DNA of 64,000 bases from Leucoraja erinacea. Its lineage: Eukaryota. The number at the start of each line of letters is the position of its first letter. Position 1 is the first letter of the stretch. Positions 9,601 through 64,000 of this stretch are shown in pieces. The notes beneath the pieces were generated by a model. It ran no database searches. It saw only the letters and a list, made by a program, of their open reading frames with translations, and was not told the DNA's origin. Both the position numbers and the translations under genes were made by a program. Location: assembly GCF_028641065.1 (NCBI RefSeq), contig NC_073381.1:19406001-19470000 (forward strand), written 5' to 3'.

Positions 9601-10636
9601 TGCAGTGACTAGTGGGGTACCCCAAGGCTCAGTACTGGGACCCCAGCTATTTACAATATATATTAATGATCTGGATGAGGGAATTGAAGGCAATATCTCC
9701 AAGTTTGCGGATGACACTAAGCTGGGGGGCAGTGTTAGCTGTGAGGAGGATGCTAGGAGACTGCAGGGTGACTTGGATAGGCTGGGTGAGTGGGCAAATG
9801 CAGTATAATGTGGATAAATGTGAGGTTATCCATTTTGGTGGTAAAAACAGGAAAGCAGACTATTATCTAAATGGTGGCCGATTGGGAAAGGGGGAGATGC
9901 AGCGAGACCTGGGTGTCATGGTACACCAGTCATTGAAGGTAGGCATGCAGGTGCAGCAGGCAGTAAAGAAAGCGAATGGTATGTTAGCTTTCATTGCAAA
10001 AGGATTTGAGTATAGGAGCAGAGAGGTTCTACTGCAGTTGTACAGAGTCTTGGTGAGACCACACCTGGAGTATTGCGTACAGTTTTGGTCTCCAAATCTG
10101 AGGAAGGACATTATTGCCATAGAGGGAGTGCAGAGACGGTTCACCAGACTGATTCCTGGGATGTCAGGACTGTCTTATGAAGAAAGACTGGATAGACTTG
10201 GTTTATACTCTCTAGAATTTAGAAGATTGAGAGGGGATCTTATAGAAACTTACAAAATTCTTAAGGGGTTGGACAGGCTAGATGCAGGAAGATTGTTCCC
10301 GATGTTAGGGAAGTCCAGGACAAGGGGTCACAGCTTAAGGATAAAGGGGAAATCCTTAAAAAAACCGAGATGAGAAGAACTTTTTTTTTCACGCAGAGAG
10401 CGGTGAATCTCTGGAACTCTCTGCCACAGAGGGTAGTTGAGGCCAGTTCATTGGCTATATTTAAGAGGGAGTTAGATGTGGCCCTTGTGGCTAAGGGGAT
10501 CAGGGGGTATTGAGAGAAGGCAGGTACGGGATACTGAGTTGGATGATCAGCCATGATCATATTGAATGGCGGTGCAGGCTCGAAGGGCCGAATGGCCTAC
10601 TCCTGCACCTAATTTCTATGTTTCTATGTTTCTATG
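9601..10636 (+). mobile_element. Young 5'-truncated CR1 LINE
   Basis: [46 protein letters not shown] motifs and (TTTCTATG)n tail. Confidence 0.95.
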
Positions 10637-31672: not shown

Positions 31673-33695
31673 CATAGAAACATACAAAATAGGTGCAGGA
31701 GTAGGCCATTCGGCCCTTCGAGCCTGCACCGCCGTTCAATATGATCATGGCTGATCATCCAACTCAGTATCCTGTACCTGCCTTCTCTCCGTACGCCCTG
31801 ATCCCTTTAGCTACAAGGGTCACATCTAACTCCCTCTTAAATATAGCCAATGAACTGCCCTCAGCTACTTTCTGGGGCAGAGAATTCCACAGATTCACCA
31901 CTATCTGTGTGAACATTTTTTTTCTCTCATCTCGGTCCTAAAAGACTCCCCCCTTATCCTTAAACTGTGACCCCTTGTTCTGGACTTCCGCAACATCGGG
32001 AACAATCTTCTTGCATCTAGCCTATCCAACCCCTTAAGAATTTTGTAAGTTTCTATAAGATCTCCCCTCAATCTTCTAAATTCCAGCGAGTACAAGCCGA
32101 GTCTATCCAGTCTTTCTTCATATGAAAGTCCTGCCATCCCAGGAATCAGTCTGGTGAACCTTCTCTGTACTCTCTCTATGGCAAGAATGTCTTTCCTCAG
32201 ATTAGGAGACCAAAAATGTATGCAATACTCCAGGTGTGGTCTCACCAAGGCCCTGTACAACTGCAGTAAAACCCCCCTGCTCTTATACTCAAATTCTTTT
32301 GCTATGAATGCTAACATACTATTTGCTTTCTTCACTGCCTGCTGCACCTGCATTCCTACTTTCAATGACTGGTGTACCATGACACCCAGGTCTCGTTGCA
32401 TCTCCCCTTTTCCTAATCAGCCACCATTCAGATAATAGTCTACTTTCCTGTTCTTGCCACCAAAGTGTATAACCTCACATTTATCCACATTATACTGCAT
32501 CTGCCATGCATTTGCCCACTCACCCAACCAAGTCACCTTGCAGCCTCCTAGCATCCTCCTCACAGCTAACACTGCCCCCCAGCTTCGTGTCATCGCAAAC
32601 TTGGAGATGTTGCATTCAATTCCCTCATCCAAATCATTAATATATATTGTAAATAGCTGGGGTCCTGGCACTGAGCCTTGCGGTACCCAACTAGTCACTG
32701 CCTGCCATTCTGAAAAGGACACGTTTACTCCTACTCTTTGCTTCCTGTCTGCCAGACAGTTCTCTATCCACATCAATACTGATCCCCCAATACCGTGTGC
32801 TTTAAGTTTAATAATCTCTTATGTGGGACCTTGTCAAAAGCCTTCTAAAAGTCCAGATATAACACAGCCACTGGTTCTCCCTTATCCACTCTACTAGTTA
32901 CATCCTCGAAAAATTCTATAAGATTCGTCAGACATGATTTACCTTTCATAAATTTATGCTGACTTTGTCCAATGATTTCACCACTTTCCAAATGTGCTGC
33001 TATCCCATCTTTAATAACTGACTTTAGTAGCAGTTTCCCCACTACCGATGTTAGACTAACTGGTCTGTAATTCCCCTGTTTTCTCTCTCCCTCACTTTTT
33101 AAAAAGTGAGGTTACATTAGCTACCCTCCAATCCTCAGGAACTACTCCAGAATCTAAAGAGTTTTGAAAAATTATCACTAATGCAACCACTATTTCTGGG
33201 GCTACTTCCTTAAGCAATCTGGGATGCTATCTGGCCTTTAATCCATTCAAATTACCTAACACCACTTCCCGACTAACCTGGATTTCACTCAGTTCCTCCA
33301 TCTCATTTGACCCCCGGTCCCCTGCTATTTCCAGCAGATTATTTATGTCTTCCTTAGTGAAGTCAGAACCAAAGTAGTTATTCAATTGGTCTGCCATTTC
33401 CTTGTTCCCAAATGATCAATTCACCTGTTTCTGACTGCATTTGTTTTAACTAATCTTTTTCTCTTCACATATCTATAAAAACTTTTAGTCAGTTTTTATG
33501 TTCTCTGCCAGTTTTCTTTCATAATCTATTTTTCCTTTCCTAATTAAGCCCTTTGTCCTCCTCTGCTGGACTCTGAATTTCTCCCAGTCCTCCGGTAGGC
33601 TGCTTTTTCTGGCTAATTTGTATGATTCATCTTTTGTTTTGATACTATCTCTAATTTCCCTTGATATCCATGGATGCACTACCTTACCTGATTTA
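31673..33695 (-). mobile_element. Young CR1 LINE (about 2 kb, disrupted RT)
   Basis: GKSCLTNLIEFFEDVT, YLDF, VPQGSV.GP, VRPHLEYC motifs; the 3' kilobase is a close reverse complement of 9601-10636. Confidence 0.95.
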
Positions 33696-34830: not shown

Positions 34831-35280
34831 GTCTCACTACCATTGGGAAAAATGTAAAGGTGGCTGAAAACCATTAACTTCAAGTTTTCCAGAAATCTAG
34901 CTGTTGAACACAACACTAACTACCTCAGCCACCATGATCTGATCTACTGTGGATTTTGTTTGGGGTGCACTGCATACTTTGGCTCTGCACTAGTATGCTC
35001 TGGTTACCTTGTGTTACTGATTAATAATTTATTGTATTCATGATATCCATTTGTGTGTTATCGCTTTAATGGGCCTGTAACGCTGCAGCAAGTAGGCATT
35101 TCATTGTTCTGTTGCCCAGTACACATGACAATTAAATATTCTTGACTTTTGAGATCTTCTCCCCATCATACACCAGTTAAAGCAGACATCAACAAAGCTA
35201 CTAACAAGTAATGAAAATTTGCCTTGATGCGCACTGTTCCAGCATAGATCTTATGAAATCAAACTACTCAAATGGTAGTC

Positions 35281-35368
35281 ACCAAATGCTGAAGTGACTC
35301 AGCGGGTCAGGCAACTTCTATGGAGAGAAGGAATAGGTGACTTTTCGGAACGAGACCCTTTCTTCAGT
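35281..35368 (-). mobile_element. Penelope-derived short element, degenerate
   Basis: actcagcgggtcaggca...ggaataggtgacttttcggaacgagaccctttcttcag. Confidence 0.7.
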
Positions 35369-35440
35369 GTTAGGTGCAAGCACAGTCTCTAGACCAGCTT
35401 AAAATCAACAGATGTGTAAAATAAGGTGAACACGACTGTT

Positions 35441-35760
35441 GTGTTAAAGAAATATCTGCAGATGTTCGAAAATCGAAGGTACACAAAAATGCTGGAGAAA
35501 CTCAGCGGGTGCAGCAGCATCTATGGAGCGAAGGAGATAGGCAACGTTTCGGGCCAAAACCCTTCTTCAGACTGATGGAGGGTGGGGGGAGGCGGGGAGA
35601 AGAAAGGGTAAAGGAGGAGGAGGAGCCCGAGGGCTGAGGGAGAGGTAGGAAGGGGAGGAGACAGCAAGGGTTAACGGAATTGTGAGAATTCAATGTTCAT
35701 GCCGCCAGGATGCAGACTCCCCAAGCGGAATATGAGGTGCTGTTCCTCCAATTTCCGGTG
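35441..35760 (-). mobile_element. Penelope-like element 3' end: GIY-YIG endonuclease C-terminus, UTR and hammerhead-bearing pLTR
   Basis: 35760-35671 translates to HRKLEEQHLIFRLGSLHPGGMNIEFSQFR*, the typical PLE E..I..L....P.G.N ending; CTGAAGA-aGGGTTttGGCCC-GAAACGTT follows at 35570-35543. Confidence 0.88.
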
Positions 35761-35824
35761 TAACTGTCCTCCAATTTCAGGTGTAACAGTCTCATCAATG
35801 ACTGTTGATGAGAAACCGCTAATC

Positions 35825-40059: not shown

Positions 40060-41517
40060 CGACAATCAAAACTGCCTTTCCTTTCAAAACCCTTGAAAAG
40101 GTAATTTTAAATCAACTTATGTCTCACCTTCACCAAAATATTATCTTGGAAACTTTCCAATCAGGTTTCAGGGCCCACCACAGCACAGAATCTGCCTTGT
40201 TGAAGGTACATAATGACCTACTGCTCACCGTTAATGACCTACTGCTCACCGTTGACTCCGGCGACTGTGCAATCCTGCTCCTTCTCAACCTCAGCGCAGC
40301 ATTTGATACTGTCGACCACACCATCCTAATTGACCGTCCCTGGTACGGGGTTGCCCTGAGCTGGTTCATCTCCTACCTCAAAGGTAGGGGTTTCTCTACT
40401 AACATAGGCAACTCTTTGCCCTCCCCAGCTAGCCTCTGCTGCGGGTTTCCATAAGGTTACATCCTTGGCCCCATTCTCTTCTCCCAGTATATGCTCCCCT
40501 TAGGCCATCATTCAAAGGCACGGCATTTCCTTCCATTGCTATGCAGCCGATATACAACTCCCCCTGAAGTCCAAAAACCGATCAAATCTACTCAGCCTTA
40601 TCCACTGCCTCGAGGATATAAAGTGTTGGATGGCCCAGAACTTCTCCAACTAAACGAGAGTAAGTCTGAGGTCATCCTTCTCGGCCCCTCAGACTCAATC
40701 AAAATGATAGCAGGCAGCCTTGGAAGACTTACCCCATTACTCAAACCTCACGTCAAAAACATTGGCGTGATATTTGACTCAGCATTGAAATTTGACAAAC
40801 AAGTCAATGCCGTGGTAAAAGCTAGCTTCTTCCAGCACGATAGCTAAAATAAAACAATTCCTCCAGTTTGACGACCTCGAAAAAATCATCCACACATTTA
40901 TCTCCTCCCGCCTCGATTACTGCAACTCCCTTTACACTGGAATCAGCCAATCTTCCCTGTCCCACCTGCAACTGGTCCAAAACACCGCAGCAAGACTCTT
41001 GACGGGCACCCGAAAAAGGGACCACATCACCCCGATTCTGGCCTCTCTCTACTGGCTCCCTGTGCAGTTCCGAATAAATTTCAAGATCCCTCTTTATGTC
41101 TACAAAGCCCTTAACGGGCTTGCCCCACCTACATCAATAGTTTGCTTACCCACCACACCACCTCCAGGTCCCTCAGATCGGCCGACTTGGGGTTACTGAA
41201 CATCCCGCGGTCTAGGCATAAACTCAGGGGCGACCGCGCCTTTGCGGTTGCAGGTCCTAGACTGTGGAACAGCATCCCCCTTCCCATCAGAACTGCCCCC
41301 TCCATCGACTCCTTTAAGTCGAGACGTAAAACTCATCTTTACTCTCAAGCCTTTCCTGACGTCATCTGAGGGAGGGCTATATGTATGTATTTATGTATGT
41401 ACTTAATCTATGAACCAATGTTGTATAACATTAGTACCTCCACCAATGTAAAGCACTTTGGCCAACGAGAGTTCTTTTTTAAATGTGCTATAGAAATAAA
41501 AGTGACTTGACTTGACA
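40060..41517 (+). mobile_element. L2 LINE, 5'-truncated, inserted in a CR1 tail
   Basis: FQSGFRAHHSTESALLKVHND, LSAAFDTVDH, DHITPILASLYWLPV, GDRAFAVAGPRLWNS; (GACTT)n tail. Confidence 0.93.
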
Positions 41518-42276
41518 GTAACCCGTGCCTACCTCTAGCCCCTAGAGCTCTATCTATCTCTCTTTTAAATGCATCCAGTGAATTGGCCTCTACTGCCTTC
41601 GGTGGCATGGAATTCCACAAATTCACAACTCTCTAGGTGAAAACGTTTTTTCTCATCTCAGTTTTAAATGGCCTCCCCTTTATTCTTAGACTGTGGCCCC
41701 TGGTTCTGGACTCCCCCAACATTGGGAACATTTTTCCTGCATCTAGCTTGTTGAGTCTTCCAATCTTTTCTCATCCGCCATCCCAGGGATTGACCTCGTG
41801 AACCTACGCTGCACTGCCTCAATAGCAAGGATGTCCTTCCTCAAATTAAGAGACCAAAACTGCACACAATACTCCAGATGTGGTCACACCAGGGCCCTGT
41901 ACAACTGCAGAAGGACCTGTACTCAAATCCTCTCGTTATGAAGGCCAATATGCCATTAGCTTTCTTCACTGCCTGCTGTACCTCCATGTTTACTCTCAGT
42001 GACTGGTGTATAAGGACACCCAGGTCTTCCGTTTTTCCTAATCTGACACCATTGAGATAATAATCTGCCTCCTTGTTCTTGCCGCCAAAGTGGATAACCC
42101 CATATTTATCTACATTATACTGCAAATGCCATGCATCTGCCCACTCACTCAACCTGTCCAAGTCACCCTGCAACCTCCTAGCATTCACTTTGCAGTTGAC
42201 ATGGACACACAGCTTTGTGTTATATGCAAATTTGCTAGTGTTCCTTTTAATTCCATCATCTAAATCATTAATATAT

Positions 42277-43076
42277 CAAGAAGAACTGCAGATGCTGGTT
42301 TAAATCAAAGGGAGACACAAATTGCTGGAGTAACTCAGCGGGTGAGGCAGCAGCTCTGGAGAGAAGGAATGGGTGACGTCACCCAAGAGCTTCAAATTCC
42401 TGGGCGTGCACATCTCTGAAGATCTTTCCTGGTTCGAGAACACTGATGCACTTATCAAGAAAGCACATCAGCGCCTCTACTTCCTGAGAAGATTACAGAG
42501 AGTCGGTTTGTCAAGGAGGACTCTCTCTAACTTCTACAGGTGCACAGTAGAGAGCATGCTGACCGGTTGCATCGTGGCTTGGTTCGGCAACTTGAGCGCC
42601 CTGGAGAGGAAGAAACTACAAAAAGTAGTAAACACTGCCCAGTCCATCATCGGCTCTGACCTTCCTTCCATCGAGGGGATTTACCGAAGTCGCTGCCTCA
42701 AAAAGGCTGGCAGTATCATCAAAGACCCACACCATCCTGGCCACACACTAATCTTCCTGCTACCTTTAGGTATAAGGTACAGGAGCCTGAAGACTGCAAT
42801 GACCAGGTTCAGGAATAGCTACTTCCCCACAGCCATCAGGCTATTAAACCTGGCTCGGACAAAACTCTGAACATTAATAACTCATTACTTGTTATTTGCA
42901 CTTTATCAGTTTATTTATTCATGTGTTTTGTAGTCAATGCCTATTATGTTCTATGTGCTGAAGCAAAGCAAGAATTTCATTGTCCTATCAGGGACACATG
43001 ACAATAAACTTGAACTTAAACTCCTTCTCTCCAGAGATGCTGCCTCACCCGTTGAGTTACTCCAGCATTTTGTGTC
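42277..43076. mobile_element. Penelope-derived fold-back element split centrally by a Rex1 fragment
   Basis: Arms 42277-42383 and 43021-43076 are inverted; 20-bp duplication catctaaatcattaatatat at 42257-42276 and 43077-43096. Confidence 0.8.
42384..43020 (+). mobile_element. Rex1/Babar 3' fragment, same family as 22760-24110
   Basis: Open frame KSFKFLGVHISEDLSW...RFRNSYFPTAIRLLN; tail gacaataaacttgaactt. Confidence 0.92.
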
Positions 43077-44499
43077 CATCTAAATCATTAATATATTGTA
43101 AATAGTTGCAGTCCCAGCACCAAGCCTTGTGGCACTCCACTCCCCACTGCCTGCCATTCTGACAGGGACCCTTTTATTCCTAGTCTTTGTTTCCTGTCTG
43201 CCGACCAATGCTCTATCCATGTCAATACCCTATCCCCAATATCATGTGCTCTAATTTTGCCCACTAATCTCATGTGTGGGACCTTATCAAATGCTTTCTG
43301 AAAGTACAGATACACTACATCCACTGGCCCTCCTTCATCCATTTTACTTGTCACATCCTCAAAATATTCCAGAAGATTAGTCAAGCAGGATTCCCCTTCA
43401 TAAATCCATGCTGACTTGGACCAATCCTTTTACTGCTATTCAAATGCGCTGTTATTGCTTCTGTAATAATTGACCCCAGCATCTTCCCCACCACCGATGT
43501 CAGGCTAACTGGTCTGCAATTCCCCCTTTTCTTTCTCGCTCCTTTCTTGAAAAGTGGCATAACATTAGCTACCCTCCAATCCACAGGAACTGATCCTGAA
43601 TCTACGGAACATTGGAAAATGATCACCAATGTGTTCACGATTTCTAGAGCCATCTCCTTGAGTACCCTGGGATGCAAACCATCAGGCTCTGGGGATTTAT
43701 CAGCCTTCATTCCCATCAGTCTACCCAATACTATTTCTTGCCTAATACAAATTTCTTTCAGTTCCTTTGGCTTCCTTGACCCTCTGGCCTCTAGTACCTG
43801 TGCAGGTGAATTTATGGGATATACCCCACTTTTAACTAAGGAGTGCATGGAATTTACAATGATAGGTAGTGTTGGGAGAGCTTGAAAAACTTGAACATGC
43901 TTACATGTACTTTCTGTATGGTGCTCAGGAAGACTCTGCAAGGCTGTAGCCGAATGCCAGGGATACACAAGATTGCCAGGGAAGTCCCCCAAGGATGCGA
44001 GTGCAGTTCATGGTTGCTTGGGGAAATATGCAATCCCCGCTTGGTCTGCTCCAATGGGCAGAAGTATGAGAAGGTGAGGTCTCCACTCCTTCAATATAGC
44101 ATTCCCATGCAGCTTTGATTAGCAATTTGAGATTGTGTCATAGATCACAGCAGCTTGGAACAATCCTGTGGCTGGAGAGGAATGTGTGACTGTAACCTTA
44201 ACCTCTAAAAAGAAATCAGTCAGGCATGTGTGTATACTTGTGTTCGCAGGTAAGATGGCGATGACAATGAATGCTGCTCAAGGAATGGTCCTCTAAACAG
44301 CATGGTTTTAGGGTAAACAGCAATTCTGCATATTGTTCTTCTTTTTCGGGCTTTTGCAGGAATTTTACAACAGAATGAAGGTTTAGAGCTTGAAAGAGAA
44401 ACATGAAAGTCAATAAAAAATTGTTATTTTTCAATATTAGGTGTGTAAATGTCACCAATAATTTGACTGGTCCAACTACATTGGCGACACGGCCAAGAA

Positions 44500-51799: not shown

Positions 51800-52085
51800 T
51801 TCTTTGATAAATGGATAAAATCCACTGCGATTGTTATGCACCGACTCCCAAAGTTATTTTGATTGCACCTCTTCCCAGCCGGTTCTTTTCAAGGATACAA
51901 TCCCCTTTTCCCAGTTTTCCTGTCCCCTCTCCATTGGCTCTCAAGGTAAGTCTTCCATTCCAGGATGTTTGAAATGAGTATCCATTGCAAGGTTACCATC
52001 CCTTTCTTTCAGTTTATTTCTCTCCTCCACATCTGCTCTCAAGATTAGGCCTTCCATTCCAAGACATAGAAATGTCCTCCTTCTG
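51800..52085 (+). mobile_element. Degenerate Penelope RT-thumb coding fragment, partly duplicated in tandem
   Basis: Remnants resembling PTDS.SY.D.TSS.P...K.TIPFSQF, then CK.TIPF.QF..L.HICSQD.AFHSKT..MSSF. Confidence 0.55.
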
Positions 52086-58662: not shown

Positions 58663-59221
58663 CAGTCGAGTGGCGCATGGAGTGGCGTGGAGGAGTGTGG
58701 ACTACGTCCTGCACTAAATCTTCGCGCGCCACCGGCCTGTCGCGTAACTGACGGCTAAAGTGGGACAGGCCGAAGACCCTGGCGTAACGCGACATCTCAC
58801 CTCCAACAGCAGCAGAAGCAGGCAAACGATCGCCAAGCTCGGCCTGGGGCTCACGGCCGTTGCGGATCCGGATCCGCCCCCACTCCTACTCCCAGAGCGG
58901 GGCCAAGACAATTGAAGATAGACACAAAATCCTGGAGTAACTCAGCGGGACCGGCAGCATCCTTGGAGAGAAGGAATGGGTGGCGTTTAGGGTCGAGACC
59001 CTTCTTTCAGACTGAAGAAGAGTCTCGACCCGAAACATCATCCATTCCTTCTCTCCAGAGATGCTGCCGGTCCCGCTGAGTTACTCCTGCATTTTGTGTC
59101 CATCTTCAAATGACGTCACGAGCTCCAGACGGCTGTGATGGCGCATGATGACGCGCGCGACTCTCGCGGGACCGTCACTACCGGCCTGTCGCGGAAGTGA
59201 CGGCCCAAGTGGGACAGGCCC
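58663..59221. mobile_element. Left-truncated Harbinger-type MITE with an internal copy of its terminus
   Basis: Right end AAGTGGGACAGGCCCT+TTA as at 2341; the internal repeat accggcctgtcgcg...tgacggc..aagtgggacaggcc occurs at about 58731-58771 and 59180-59220. Confidence 0.65.
58912..59109. mobile_element. Near-perfect 198-bp fold-back Penelope-derived element
   Basis: ttgaagatagacacaaaat...cccttctttcag | actgaagaagagtctcgacccgaaac...attttgtgtccatcttcaa; the two halves are reverse complements. Confidence 0.88.
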
Positions 59222-59224
59222 TTT

Positions 59225-61330
59225 AACTGCACACAATACTCCAGGTGTGGTCTCACTAGCGCGCTGTAGAATTGCAGAAGGACCTCTTTGCTCCTATACT
59301 CAACTCCTCTTGTTCTCTTGTTGCCATTCGCTTTCTTCACTGCCTGCTGTACCTGCATGCTTACTTTCATTGACTGATGAACAAGGACCCCCAGATCCCG
59401 TTGTACTTCCCCTTTTGTACTTTCCAACTTGACATAATTTAGATAATAATCTGCCTTCCTGTTTTCGCTACCAAAGTGGATAACCAAGTCAAGTCAAGTC
59501 AAAGTCAAGTCAAGTCAAGTTTATTTGTCACATACACATACGAGATGTGCAGTGAAATGAAAGTGGCAATGCTCGCGGACATTTGTGCAAAAGACAACAA
59601 CAAAACAACCAAACAAATTATAAACACAATCATAACACACATATTCTTTTACATAATAAATAATAGAAGGAAAAACGTTCTGTAGAGTTAGTCCCTGGTG
59701 AGATGGGCGTTTACAGTCCGAATTGCCTCTGGGAAGAAACTCCTTCTCAACCTCTCCGTTCTCACTGCATGGCAACGGAGACGTTTGCCTGACCGTAGCG
59801 GCTGGAACAGTCCGTTGCAGGGGTGGAAGAGGTCTCTCATGATTTTGTTTGCTCTGGAGTTGCACCTCCTGTTGTATAGTTCCTGCAGGGGGGTGAGTGA
59901 AGTTCCCATAGTGCGTTCGGCCGAACGCACTACTCTCTGCAGAGCCTTCTTGTCCTTCGCAGAGCAATTCCCAAACCAGATGGTAATGTTCCCGGACAAG
60001 ATGCTTTCCACCGCCACTGCGTAGAAGCACTGTAGGATCCTCGGAGACACTCTGAATTTCCTCAATTGCCTGAGGTGGTAAAGGCGCTGCCTTGCCTTAC
60101 TCACCAGTGCTGAGGCGTGTGATGACCATGTCATATCCTCAGAGATGTGGACTCCCAGATATTTAAAACAGTTCACCCTATCCACAGGATCCCCATTTAT
60201 ACTCAATGGAGTGTACGTCCTCGGATGATGTGCCCTCCTAAAGTCCATGATCAGCTCCTTCGTTTTTTTGATGTTCAAGAGGAGGCTGTTCTCCTGGCAC
60301 CAGAGTGCTAGATCAGCCACCTCCTCCCGGTAGGCCTTCTCATCATTGTCTGAGATCAGGCCCACCACCACAGTGTCATCAGCAAACTTAATTATTGAAT
60401 TGGAGCTGAACCTAGCCACAGTCATGTGTGTACAGGGAGTACAATAGGGGGCTGAGGACGCAACCCTGGGGCGATCCTGTGCTCAGGGTGAGGGACTTCG
60501 ATGTATTCCCTCCCATCTTGACTACCTGGGGCCTGGCGGTGAGAAAGTCCAGGACCCAGGCACACAGGGAGGTGTTGAGCCCCAATTTCAGTAGCTTCCC
60601 GGCCAGTCTGGTGGGGACTATCGTGTTGAAGGCTGAACTGTAGTCTATGAACAGCATCCTCACGTAGCCCCCCTTCTGGCTGTCCAGATGGGAGAGAGCG
60701 GTGTGCAAGACCTGGGAGACCGCATCGTCCGTGGACCTGTTCGGACGGTATGCGATCTGCAACGGGTCCATGTTCCGAGGGAGGAAGGCGCAGATTACCT
60801 CACATTAATCTACATTAAACTGCATCTGCCCACTCCCCCAACCTGTCCGTCACCCTGCATTCTCATAGCATCTTCCTCACAGTTCACACTGCCACCCAGC
60901 TTTGTGTCATCTGCATATTTGCTAATGTTAATTTGAATCCCTTCATCTAAATCATTGATGTACATTGTAAATAGCTGCGTTCCCAGCACTGCGCCTTGCG
61001 GTACCCCACTTGTCATTGCCTGCCATTCTGAAAGGGACCCGTTAATCCCTACTCTTTGTTTCCTGTCTGCCAACCAATTTTTGATCCATGTCAGCACTCT
61101 ACCCCAATACCACGTGCCCTAATTTTGCCCACTGATCTCCTATGTGGGACCTTATCAAATGCTTTCTGAAAGTCCAGGCACATCGGCTGGCTCTCCCTTG
61201 TCCATTTTCCTAGTTGCATCCTCAAAAAATTCCAGATTAGTCAAGCATGATTTCCCCTTCGTAAATCCATGATGACTCGGACCAATCCTGTTACTGCTAT
61301 CCAAATGTGCCGCTATTTCATCTTTTATGA
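59225..61330 (-). mobile_element. CR1 fragment split by a Rex1 insertion
   Basis: VRPHLEYCVQ at the left; SGVPQGAVLG, YADDTKL, KAFDKVP at the right. Confidence 0.88.
59486..60795 (-). mobile_element. Young Rex1/Babar LINE, 5'-truncated, one frameshift
   Basis: [17 protein letters not shown]...[12 protein letters not shown]...[20 protein letters not shown] / KFADDTVVVGLI...RRSFFPEAIR; (CTTGA)n tail. Confidence 0.95.
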
Positions 61331-62293
61331 AAGTATATCAGCTACTGCTGATCTCGGTCAGATCTCACTTCTGCATTAGGTTGGGCACCCAAGCTCCATA
61401 CTCAAGCTCAGATAGAGCAGGTCTGATACCATGCAAGTGTTGCTATTGACTTCACTCATGTTGAATTACTACTTACAGAGGCCTCCCTAGCAACCTCCTG
61501 CAGGAGTGCCCATCTTTCGTTCAGGACTGTCTGAGTGACCTCCCCTGCATCAAGAACATGCCTACTGTGAGTACTGATCTCCACCAGCCCAGCCAAATCC
61601 CTCTGATCACCTGTGAGTACCCCCCCCCCCCCCCTCCATTTACCATAATCACACAATCACTCCTGAGCAGCAAAAGAATGCAGCTGGAAGTGGGCTGCTT
61701 GCAAAAAGAGTAATTCCTTCAAGAGCTGTTTCCTTGACCTTGTAGCTGCGAGGCTAAATGATGGCAGCTGTGAGAATTTGCAATAGGTCAGTGCGATAGC
61801 ACATGAAGAAACTGACACAGCACGGCGCTATGCATGGGAACCCTGGGAAAACTGTTCTGAAGACTTTGCAATGGTGGATCACAATCTTTATATGACTTAT
61901 ATGAAGTTATGCCAGCACACAACTTTGAAGAAGAGTTGCTAGACTGAAATGTTCAGCTTATTCAGTTCTGACCACTAAATACTTATCAGAAGTGGTGTGT
62001 ACGGGTCTGAATAAGTGTAGTCGGAAAAATGGCCGAACCAAACACACGATAACAGAACAAGATTGTTTCTTTTATTGTACAATTTCTGTGCTGCTTCTAA
62101 TTTTAATCCTAATACCATTCTTCCTCAGTTTTTATACCACACTTTTTGAATCACTCAGAATTACACACAAGTTTCCACACCCTTTCTCTTTCTATTTGCA
62201 TTAAATGTGTCTTTACTGATGGTGCCAAATATAACTTTTCTCGATTGGTATATTTGGCTGCAAGCAATAAATGGGACTGGGGATATTAAAATG

Positions 62294-62604
62294 TCTGACG
62301 AAAGGTCTCAGCCCAAAAGTCACCCATTCCTGTCTCTCCAGAAATGCTTAAGAAGGAACTACGGATGCTGGAAAATCGAAGGTACACAAAAATGCTGGAG
62401 AAACTCAGCGGGTGCAGCAGCATCTATGGAACGAAGGAAATAGGCAACGTTTCGGGTCTGAAGAAGGGTTCCGACCAGAAACGTTGCCTATTTCCTTCAC
62501 TCCATAGATGCTGCTGCACCCGCTGGGTTTCTCAAGCATTTTTGTGTATCTCCAGAAATGCTGCCTGTCCCGCTGGGTTACTCCAGCATTTTGTGTCTAT
62601 CTTC
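62294..62604 (+). mobile_element. Penelope-derived element (subfamily A) containing a nested subfamily-B fold-back copy at 62349-62548
   Basis: Outer TSD atattaaaatg (62283-62293 and 62605-62615); inner TSD tctccagaaatgct (62335-62348 and 62549-62562). Confidence 0.88.
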
Positions 62605-64000
62605 ATATTAAAATGCTGCTGCTTATGTGGGTGGGAAAGATAGGTCAGCTGGATGAAGGATCTTGGAGTATTTGTAAGTGCCACACAACAGCAACAACAC
62701 ATGTTCCAAGAGGCATACAACAGATCCAGCTACAGATAAATTTCAGATAAAAATGCCCAAAACCTCGGGGTATAAATAGTAAATGGGGCGCTTACACATT
62801 GCATCTTTGGAATCAACTCTCAGCATTAGTATGTTAGTTTATTTCTTAAGCAGAAATACAGGTTTTCAGTCTTTTTGACATATTGAAACCAGAATATGGT
62901 TTGTAAAGTTAAGAAACATTTGTAATTATTTGTGGTCATTACTCTTTGCTTATTCAGTAACACTTTGGCTTCATTGGAAAAGTCAAATCTTAATAACAAT
63001 CCAGTTCCTTATTAAATTCGCATTTTTAGGAGAGACTTATGCCTCACAAAGTTCATATTGGAATTAAGTAATCTTTCTAATCTTCACTTCACTCAGATAT
63101 TATGGTCAGAGCCCATAAAACATACCATGGATACTCCGCAGGTATGACCTCATGTTGTTAAATATTTAACAAATCACTCTCAATAGCTTTGCCAATCTCT
63201 TTGTTTTCCCGAAGTACCCAATGTCTGGGTTTCATTACACAGCTGCCAAAGTTCTATAAACTGTACTTTTGTCACGTCCCTACAAATAAGTTGCAGACTG
63301 AATTGAAAGCAACCACCACACATCATTGAATAAAAAACATTCAATTAATTTTGTTGATGATTTGGTCATTTTATTATAGAAAACTAAAGCACTAAAATAC
63401 CTTGTGAAACCTTGCCCGATGGTTATGAAAGCATTCTGGCAACTGAACAGTATGGTCCAGTCATTGACTAGGGAACCAAACAAGCAAGTTTATAGCATGG
63501 ACGGGGACCATTTGGCCCTTCATGCCTAAGCTGACTCTGCAAATAATCGTATTGCTTTTGGTCTTCCTAGAACCTTTTTTATTTCTTTGCTTCACTCAAA
63601 ATGTAATGGTTGTTTGCTTGTTCTAAAGCTTTGCATGTTTCAATTAATCTGTTGTGCGTATAACATTTCTGCTAACCTCTTTCCTCACTGTCAATTACTG
63701 TTTGAAATTGGCAACTCCCATCACTGTCTCTGCAATCAGAGGAAATAGTCTTTCCTGAGTCACTTGTTAGGATTTTTAACAAAGCTTTTAATTTTAAAGG
63801 GAGCACAAGAATAGGGGAACTTTTAAGATGACAAGACAAACTTACAAATTAATTTATTTAGCTTATGGGTTTCATAAACATAGAAACAGACAAAAGACAG
63901 GAGGTTCTGTTAAACCTATACTCAACTTGTTTGACCTAGCTTTAGAAAGAATAAGGGGCCATGGAAGGCCATAGCAGATAGTCTGAAGGTGGAATTATTG

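What the first reader, a model, noticed from the sequence alone, without database searches (positions are those of the whole stretch)
35441..35760. Missing link: the hammerhead element is contiguous with a Penelope GIY-YIG C-terminus
Seen: on minus, an intact 29-codon ORF end (HRKLEEQHLIFRLGSLHPGGMNIEFSQFR*) runs into a pyrimidine-rich spacer, then the hammerhead core and the same terminal sequence as the short elements. Known: this ending is characteristic of PLE endonuclease domains. Inference: the short hairpin inserts are PLE terminal-repeat (pLTR) derivatives, not DNA-transposon MITEs, and this copy points to the autonomous partner.
Basis: partly seen in the sequence, partly recalled or inferred. 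Interest (0 to 1): 0.7.

Follow-up and report, generated by a model that had tools for sequence, protein, structure and literature searches.

The report
Truncated Penelope retrotransposon with hammerhead end
This is the clipped tail end of a very common jumping gene of a known kind (Penelope-like), still joined to the tiny ribozyme-like motif such elements are known to carry; it is ordinary, but its many relatives suggest the element likely copies one RNA onto both cut ends of the target DNA.

Summary
Confirmed and ordinary in kind. Minus 35760-35441 is a 320-bp 5'-truncated insertion of a Neptune-type Penelope-like element (PLE). It holds the last 29 codons of the GIY-YIG domain, a 95-nt pyrimidine spacer, a minimal hammerhead core and a 36-nt tail, with an 8-bp target duplication. 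Long RT+GIY-YIG frames with the same end exist elsewhere in the genome. The family has about 60,600 intact hammerhead cores. This copy is a stub of an older subfamily, not the autonomous partner. Hammerheads in pLTRs, tails and inverted ends are published. The short and hairpin copies are PLE products: 51 of 83 young events have variable TSDs, against 5 of 300 in the null. One correction: the 58909-59112 hairpin was amplified inside a true TIR MITE (642 identical junctions). The useful extra is the insertion signature. Of 34 classifiable head-to-head events, 29 pair one tailed with one untailed arm and none has two tails; TSDs centre on 15 bp. This fits twin priming at two RNA start sites (inferred). 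The scan noted this family and both readings before on other DNA of this genome. Ribozyme activity is untested; helix I is only 2 bp.

The parts
35800..35807 (-). Target-site duplication, 5' copy (8 bp)
   Evidence: Same 8-mer at 35434-35441; no empty allele seen
35762..35799 (-). 5'-junction filler: about 15 nt that look like an inverted copy of the adjacent target, and a 23-nt tandem duplication (21 of 23 alike) spanning the junction
   Evidence: Read from the sequence; origin by repair synthesis is inferred
35671..35760 (-). Last 29 codons plus stop of the PLE GIY-YIG endonuclease, with the conserved E and N positions
   Evidence: 28 of 28 identical to the end of a long RT+EN frame; motif conserved in homologues
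35576..35670 (-). Pyrimidine-rich spacer (3' UTR of one unit, upstream region of the next); intron-like ends, splicing not found
   Evidence: 87% C+T; spliced-junction patterns 0 and 1 match vs 7,352 unspliced
35571..35575 (-). TCAGT: boundary at which most short copies begin (candidate transcript start or RT stop)
   Evidence: 33 of 75 young arms in the grid start at -7..+5 of the core; initiator likeness is recalled
35543..35570 (-). Minimal type I hammerhead core; helix II at 35562-35551; predicted cut after 35543; helix I only 2 bp
   Evidence: not in Rfam hits; monomer fold z about 0
35477..35542 (-). pLTR segment from the hammerhead to the proximal 3' end (+90 to +94)
   Evidence: First mode of 3' ends
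35441..35476 (-). 36-nt optional tail, ending at the distal 3' end (about +130)
   Evidence: Second mode of 3' ends; in tandems it runs on to the ATG of the next ORF about 33 nt later
35434..35441 (-). Target-site duplication, 3' copy; first base shared with the element end
62345..62548 (.). Head-to-head copy of the young type: tailed arm (-) and untailed arm (+), 14-bp TSD, nested in an older short copy
58909..59112 (.). Older-type PLE hairpin carried inside a TIR MITE
   Evidence: Same flanks in L093, L101, L195; 642 exact junction matches

Best explanation
The stretch is a 320-bp, 5'-truncated copy of an endonuclease-bearing Penelope-like retrotransposon, likely of the Neptune clade, likely made by target-primed reverse transcription that began at the distal (tail) site of a read-through RNA and stopped 29 codons into the ORF. 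Shown: the anatomy, the family, the two 3' ends about 40 nt apart, the TSD. Inferred for the family: the protein cuts both target strands about 15 nt apart and leaves 3' overhangs. Each overhang can anneal by 1-6 nt to one of two AC-rich sites on the RNA (+90, +130). One primed end gives a single copy. Two primed ends on one RNA give the head-to-head hairpin with one tailed arm. Both sites lie only 95-135 nt from the hammerhead's 5' edge, so an RNA that starts (or blocks RT) there yields the mass of short copies. Only RNA that reads through a whole upstream unit yields ORF-containing copies like this one. The hammerhead is probably not cut in most templates.
For: Long frames with DKG, YIDD, a Cx4Cx2C linker, LIYCxxCxxC-YIG and this C-terminus. 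Pfam RVT_1 E=7e-6 and GIY-YIG E=0.009, both under the curated cut-offs. Partial tandems pLTR-ORF-pLTR in L051, L061, L065. 5' truncation gradient: 124,237 vs 3,163 first-look candidates for C- and N-terminal queries of different length. 3' ends are bimodal. TSD of 8 or more in 51 of 83 young events vs 5 of 300 mismatched flank pairs; head-to-head TSDs 11-18, median 15, found in 15 of 18. Tail asymmetry: 29 one-tail, 5 no-tail, 0 two-tail, 4 unclassifiable of 38 events; p about 1e-4 vs independence. Five more one-tail pairs in loci chosen for their ORFs, and one in the window. Two events have non-overlapping arms (L157, L224), which fold-back cannot make. Junction microhomology 1.9 nt (n=31) and 1.7 nt (n=34) vs 0.4 shuffled. 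The two arms are more alike than the median of other events' arms in 35 of 37. In vitro, the anole Poseidon protein nicks and extends both strands and starts RT at two sites that bracket the tail (PMC11167929).
Against: All mechanism steps are read from old insertions. The in vitro work is on Poseidon, not Neptune, and reports no homology between target and RNA start site. Three MITE-borne hairpins dropped before the count are no-tail/no-tail (one more independent exception). The microhomology null is lenient, because the TSD finder absorbs chance matches; a fair null may be about 0.8. 32 of 83 young events have no TSD by the rule used. Shared variants between arms also fit fold-back or later gene conversion. 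No RNA 5' end could be mapped: reads are swamped by copies inside host transcripts. No uninterrupted ATG-to-stop frame among 136 and 150 scored hits (longest 1,052 and 1,193 aa). No empty site seen for this insertion.
Confidence: 0.7

Rival explanations
1. Same element, but the hairpins form by self-priming or fold-back at the junction palindrome (on an antisense template, or by the cDNA snapping back), and the endonuclease trims the tail from one arm.
For: Proposed for rotifer PLEs (PMC3846280 passages); tail attributed to EN resolution in PMC8557442. Junctions often sit on local palindromes: 7 of 43 young head-to-head arms start at -5 and 5 at +10. Arms share variants.
Against: Non-overlapping arms in L157 and L224. 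Arm starts can differ by hundreds of bases (L115: +2 vs -265; L052: -645 vs -2118). The untailed arm ends where single copies end (+90), which needs no second cause under twin priming.
Confidence: 0.2
2. The short copies are a separate non-autonomous family (SINE, retrozyme or MITE) with its own masters, moved in trans; the ORF-linked copy only shows ancestry.
For: Short copies far outnumber ORF-linked ones (5 of 75 young arms reach the ORF). One hairpin is amplified inside a MITE. PLE-derived retrozymes are described (bioRxiv 10.64898/2026.07.22.740005).
Against: Short copies match the ORF-linked termini of each subfamily, up to 100%. Each hairpin outside the MITE has its own junction and TSD. 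The copies examined are single or head-to-head, not tandem arrays.
Confidence: 0.12
3. The spacer is a spliceosomal intron, as in the Drosophila virilis Penelope pLTR, and its 3' splice site sets the 5' boundary of the short copies.
For: Donor-like GT at the stop codon in many subfamilies, a pyrimidine tract, and CAG directly before the core. The Penelope intron ends at helix I (PMC4209133).
Against: Spliced-junction patterns match 0 and 1 times vs 7,352 unspliced. No such joint among the listed RNA joints, though 68 were not shown. Short copies often keep 1-5 'intron' bases not explained by the TSD. PLEs are known to retain introns in DNA copies, so the genomic zero is weak.
Confidence: 0.2

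Closest known systems
EN+ Penelope-like elements, Neptune clade (PMC8557442; passages)
   Same: Single ORF with DKG, RT, CX2-5CxxC linker and C-terminal GIY-YIG with CCHH; partial tandems; inverted 5'-truncated copy; 30-40-bp tail often on one end only; hammerhead in the pLTR.
   Different: Not placed on a tree with named references. Very high copy number (about 172 arms per Mb), mostly 95-135-nt stubs.
Minimal type I hammerheads of metazoan PLEs (PMC4209133; parts 1-2 of 4)
   Same: Full core, extra base between positions 9 and 10.1, G10.1-C11.1, palindromic 15.2-16.2, no helix III loop, mostly dispersed single motifs.
   Different: Helix II is 4 bp and helix I only 2 bp, as in the D. virilis variant. 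60,645 intact cores here vs about 4,000 (coelacanth) and 9,000 (Xenopus) there, counted with different descriptors.
Poseidon of Anolis, PAc (PMC11167929; parts 1-2 of 4)
   Same: Two adjacent internal RT start sites that bracket the tail; both strands nicked and extended; hammerhead cleavage not needed for insertion.
   Different: Different clade. In PAc the ORF starts inside the hammerhead; here the ATG lies after the tail. Here junctions show short target-RNA microhomology.
L1 twin priming (recalled, no call)
   Same: Both target strands prime on one RNA and give an inverted 5' part.
   Different: Here the second site is fixed (+90) and the arms usually overlap, which would need strand displacement.
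PIF/Harbinger (Tourist-like) MITE (label recalled)
   Same: Applies only to the carrier of the 58909-59112 hairpin: 16-bp TIR and 3-bp TWA flanks.
   Different: Does not apply to the finding or to most short copies, whose TSDs are 8-21 bp and variable.

Membership tests
EN+ Penelope-like element | One ORF with RT (DKG, catalytic DD) and C-terminal GIY-YIG | tested here: met
   Relatives L051-L070; the window holds only the last 29 codons
EN+ Penelope-like element | CCHH motif with two Cys between GIY and YIG | tested here: met
   LIYCVRCSRCQQIYIG, then EH and HF; conserved in homologues
EN+ Penelope-like element | Partial tandems forming pLTRs, inverted 5' copies, optional 30-40-bp tail | tested here: met
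EN+ Penelope-like element | RT groups with PLE/telomerase RTs in a phylogeny | not tested
Neptune clade | CX2-5CxxC linker between RT and EN (absent in Penelope/Poseidon) | tested here: met
   CNRKRCNTC; shared with Nematis, so not sufficient alone
Neptune clade | Placement with Neptune rather than Nematis RTs | not tested
   By elimination only: the preprint (passage) reports Neptune and Poseidon in vertebrates; closest named hits are cartilaginous fishes at 65-73%
Minimal hammerhead ribozyme | CUGANGA / GAAA / UH core with helix II and palindromic 15.2-16.2 | tested here: met
   Window 35570-35543; 47 of 56 intact-core copies keep 4 bp of helix II, among 135 examined
Minimal hammerhead ribozyme | Helix I of 4-5 bp | tested here: not met
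   2 bp in both subfamily types; only one-sided changes (U.G to U-A); monomer MFE is another hairpin, z about 0
Minimal hammerhead ribozyme | Self-cleavage (as dimer or protein-assisted) | not testable with these tools
   5' ends at +28..+38: 1 of 65 young singles, 6 of 43 head-to-head arms; no clear cluster at the cut site
MITE (short copies in general) | Fixed termini, fixed short TSD, amplification as a unit | tested here: not met
   TSD 8-21 bp, own junction per hairpin
MITE (carrier of 58909-59112) | TIRs, fixed short TSD, many copies with one internal junction | tested here: met
   the window copy keeps one TIR only
Non-LTR retrozyme | Tandem units each with a complete hammerhead | tested here: not met
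   This copy is single and ORF-linked; sampled copies are single or head-to-head; no genome-wide search for arrays was run

The most novel reading that the evidence does not exclude
The stubs record the PLE integration chemistry in vivo. A dimeric RT-endonuclease makes a double-strand cut with about 15-nt 3' overhangs and primes both ends on one RNA at two fixed sites 40 nt apart, by short telomerase-like primer annealing. This one rule would explain the one-sided tail, the inverted pLTR and the flood of 95/135-nt copies as run-off products from the transcript's 5' end.
Probability: 0.55. Interest if true: 0.55.

Novelty: new member of a known kind. Interest (0 to 1): 0.3.

Why it matters
The locus itself is one of several hundred thousand dead stubs. 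The family matters as a natural data set: how PLEs form tails and inverted repeats is still open, and tens of thousands of young copies with clean TSDs let twin priming be tested against fold-back by counting alone. For annotation, these short hairpins should be filed as PLE ends, except those carried by the MITE.

Tried and rejected
Rfam scan of the window: no hammerhead hit at E<=5. DNA search with an older-type arm: no match, because the tool skips very common words. A 14-bp palindromic target, my first idea for this site: rejected, the inverted 7-mer is part of the junction filler beside an ordinary direct TSD. Splicing of the spacer: not found. Transcript start from RNA reads: uninformative, depth follows genomic copy number and no start site is listed; no indexed holder is on record as RNA. 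Empty allele: no contig spans the site. Hammerhead cut site as a template end: no clear cluster. Monomer folding: no support. PDB sequence search: 0 hits. Literature: each listed 2 papers, and none of the titles or abstract starts deals with twin priming in PLEs (one is PMC11167929, read in part); one search found 0 papers for Penelope+Neptune+skate+shark+retrotransposon. These cover open-licence PMC and bioRxiv only. The RNA Biology paper on dimeric PLE hammerheads was not held. Repbase/Dfam could not be checked, so the family may already be catalogued.

Full report
Observation. A 95-nt spacer of 87% pyrimidines follows, then a minimal hammerhead core at 35570-35543. The core pattern occurs 4 times in the window against 0.01 expected. 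Rfam does not detect it. The element ends at 35441. An 8-bp direct repeat flanks it, with 38 nt of filler at the 5' junction. Positions below count from the first C of the core as 0; this copy spans -190 to about +130.

The family. The genome is 2.19 Gb. A search with this stretch gave 3,045 candidates, of which 40 were scored. The 19 other loci fetched match all 320 nt at 92-94% and extend upstream to different lengths. L012 extends into a 300-aa open frame with RT thumb, Cys linker and GIY-YIG. That protein found 124,237 candidates, 136 scored. Twenty regions around the longest frames show DKG, YIDD, a Cx4Cx2C linker and LIYCxxCxxC-YIG, ending in the same peptide. Pfam gives RVT_1 at 7e-6 and GIY-YIG at 0.009, both below the curated cut-offs. 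L051, L061 and L065 are partial tandems in which ORF end, spacer, hammerhead and tail run on to the next ATG. An N-terminal query found only 3,163 candidates. No scored hit has an unbroken ATG-to-stop frame; the longest are 1,052 and 1,193 aa. The closest named proteins are from cartilaginous fishes at 65-73%, which suggests the host group. By the features in PMC8557442 (passages) this is an EN+ PLE. The linker excludes Penelope/Poseidon; Neptune is by elimination, not by tree. The window copy is 83-85% identical to the long-frame subfamily, so it belongs to an older one.

Abundance. One 39-mer of the young end has 43,535 exact matches and the intact core pattern 60,645. A grid of 140 10-kb stretches at round coordinates holds 241 terminal arms, 172 per Mb. 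That extrapolates to roughly 375,000 in the genome, a lower bound. In the grid, 57 tblastn hits reach the endonuclease end; 30 have a core-like motif (up to 4 mismatches) within 450 nt, 9 of the young and 21 of the older type, and 27 have none. A few hits are duplicates of one place, and the most distant links may be separate insertions. Both hammerhead types are therefore ORF-linked.

Ends and TSDs. I analysed the grid plus 28 of the first 30 loci (two duplicates dropped, and L169 later as a duplicate of L168). 'Young' means at least 87% identity to L061. 3' ends fall at +89..+99 or +124..+132: the proximal end and the tail. 5' ends cluster at -7..+5 in 33 of 75 young grid arms; only 5 of 75 reach the ORF. 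TSDs of 8 bp or more occur in 51 of 83 young events against 5 of 300 mismatched flank pairs. Medians are 12 (tailed singles, 16 of 29), 13 (untailed singles, 19 of 36) and 15 (head-to-head, 15 of 18). Variable TSDs of this size point to retro-insertion and not to a DNA transposon (established knowledge).

Head-to-head copies. One search lists 41 events. Three are copies of one MITE-borne hairpin and were dropped; both of their arms lack the tail. Of the remaining 38, 29 have one tailed and one untailed arm, 5 have none, 0 have two, and 4 have a truncated arm. Against independence, with the tail share of singles (97 of 209), p is about 1e-4. One of the five (L086) has its tail split off by a later insertion, and one (L090) pairs arms that are only 81% alike. 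Five pairs in ORF-selected loci and the window's 62345-62548 follow the one-tail rule. In L157 and L224 the arms do not overlap: one is the tail alone, the other the inverted remainder. The first TSD bases continue the element by 1.9 and 1.7 nt on average against 0.4 when shuffled; the null is lenient. Arms are more alike within an event than across events in 35 of 37.

Mechanism. These patterns fit a staggered double cut with about 15-nt 3' overhangs, each able to prime RT on the RNA at +90 or +130 (inferred). PMC11167929 (parts 1-2 of 4) shows in vitro that a Poseidon protein extends both strands, starts at two sites that bracket the tail, and does not need hammerhead cleavage. PMC8557442 notes that the tail is often on one end only. 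PMC3846280 (passages) favours antisense self-priming for head-to-head junctions; the non-overlapping events argue against that. The cluster of 5' ends at the hammerhead's edge is best read as run-off at a transcript start, or a strong RT stop; RNA reads could not decide. The finding's copy then comes from a read-through RNA, primed at the tail and truncated early.

Hammerhead. The core fits the minimal type of PMC4209133 (parts 1-2 of 4). Of 135 copies examined, 56 keep the core and 47 of those a 4-bp helix II. Changes between subfamilies are one-sided only. Helix I is 2 bp and the monomer folds otherwise. Activity is untested, and template ends do not cluster at the cut site.

Correction on MITEs. 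The hairpin at 58909-59112 shares both flanks with L093, L101 and L195, and its junction has 642 exact matches. The carrier has a 16-bp TIR with 3-bp TTA or TAA flanks, which I recall as PIF/Harbinger-like. It is a PLE hairpin in origin, spread by a DNA-transposon derivative.

Prior notes and print. The scan's notes on this genome, read after my analysis, state the same family, double priming and short 5' copies; they are not independent support. Searches found no paper on twin priming in PLEs or on this family. The bioRxiv retrozyme preprint was read in part 1 of 5 and in passages; its supplements are closed and may list a cartilaginous-fish family like this one. Verdict: a real, correctly recognised PLE stub; new member of a known kind; interest 0.3.

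Noticed in passing
window 58710-59222 and 2083-2341: TIR MITE family with 3-bp TWA flanks (PIF/Harbinger-like, label recalled). A subfamily carries a PLE hairpin (642 exact junction matches); 2083-2341 is a complete short member without it. TIR matches in 28 of 140 grid stretches.
   Followed up: partly
window 62292-62608: A young head-to-head PLE copy inserted inside an older short PLE copy; both have their own TSDs (14 and 11 bp, read by eye).
   Followed up: partly
window 35276-35367: A second, older short copy in the same orientation about 70 bp from the finding's 3' end; its core is broken.
   Followed up: no
window 51839-52079 (+): Decayed fragment of an older PLE RT-thumb region (tblastn E about 1e-4).
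   Followed up: no
grid loci, ORF stop region: A donor-like GT motif at the stop codon is kept across subfamilies whose spacers differ in length (about 90-240 nt) and sequence; intron-like, but no spliced copy found.
   Followed up: partly
L061:2531 and L065:2837 (oriented): Two partial tandems whose upstream units start at nearly the same place (-407, -406); L153 and L154 start at -382 and -381. May mark a re-amplified master or a second start site.
   Followed up: no
L044:3522-3558, L192:8480-8520, L138:3990-4037: Tail-only insertions that begin at or near the proximal site (+83 to +91); L192 has a 17-bp TSD.
   Followed up: partly
window 9602-10628, 31673-33227, 41123-43675, 60849-61328: Many dispersed copies of other long repeat families, probably LINE fragments; not examined.
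   Followed up: no
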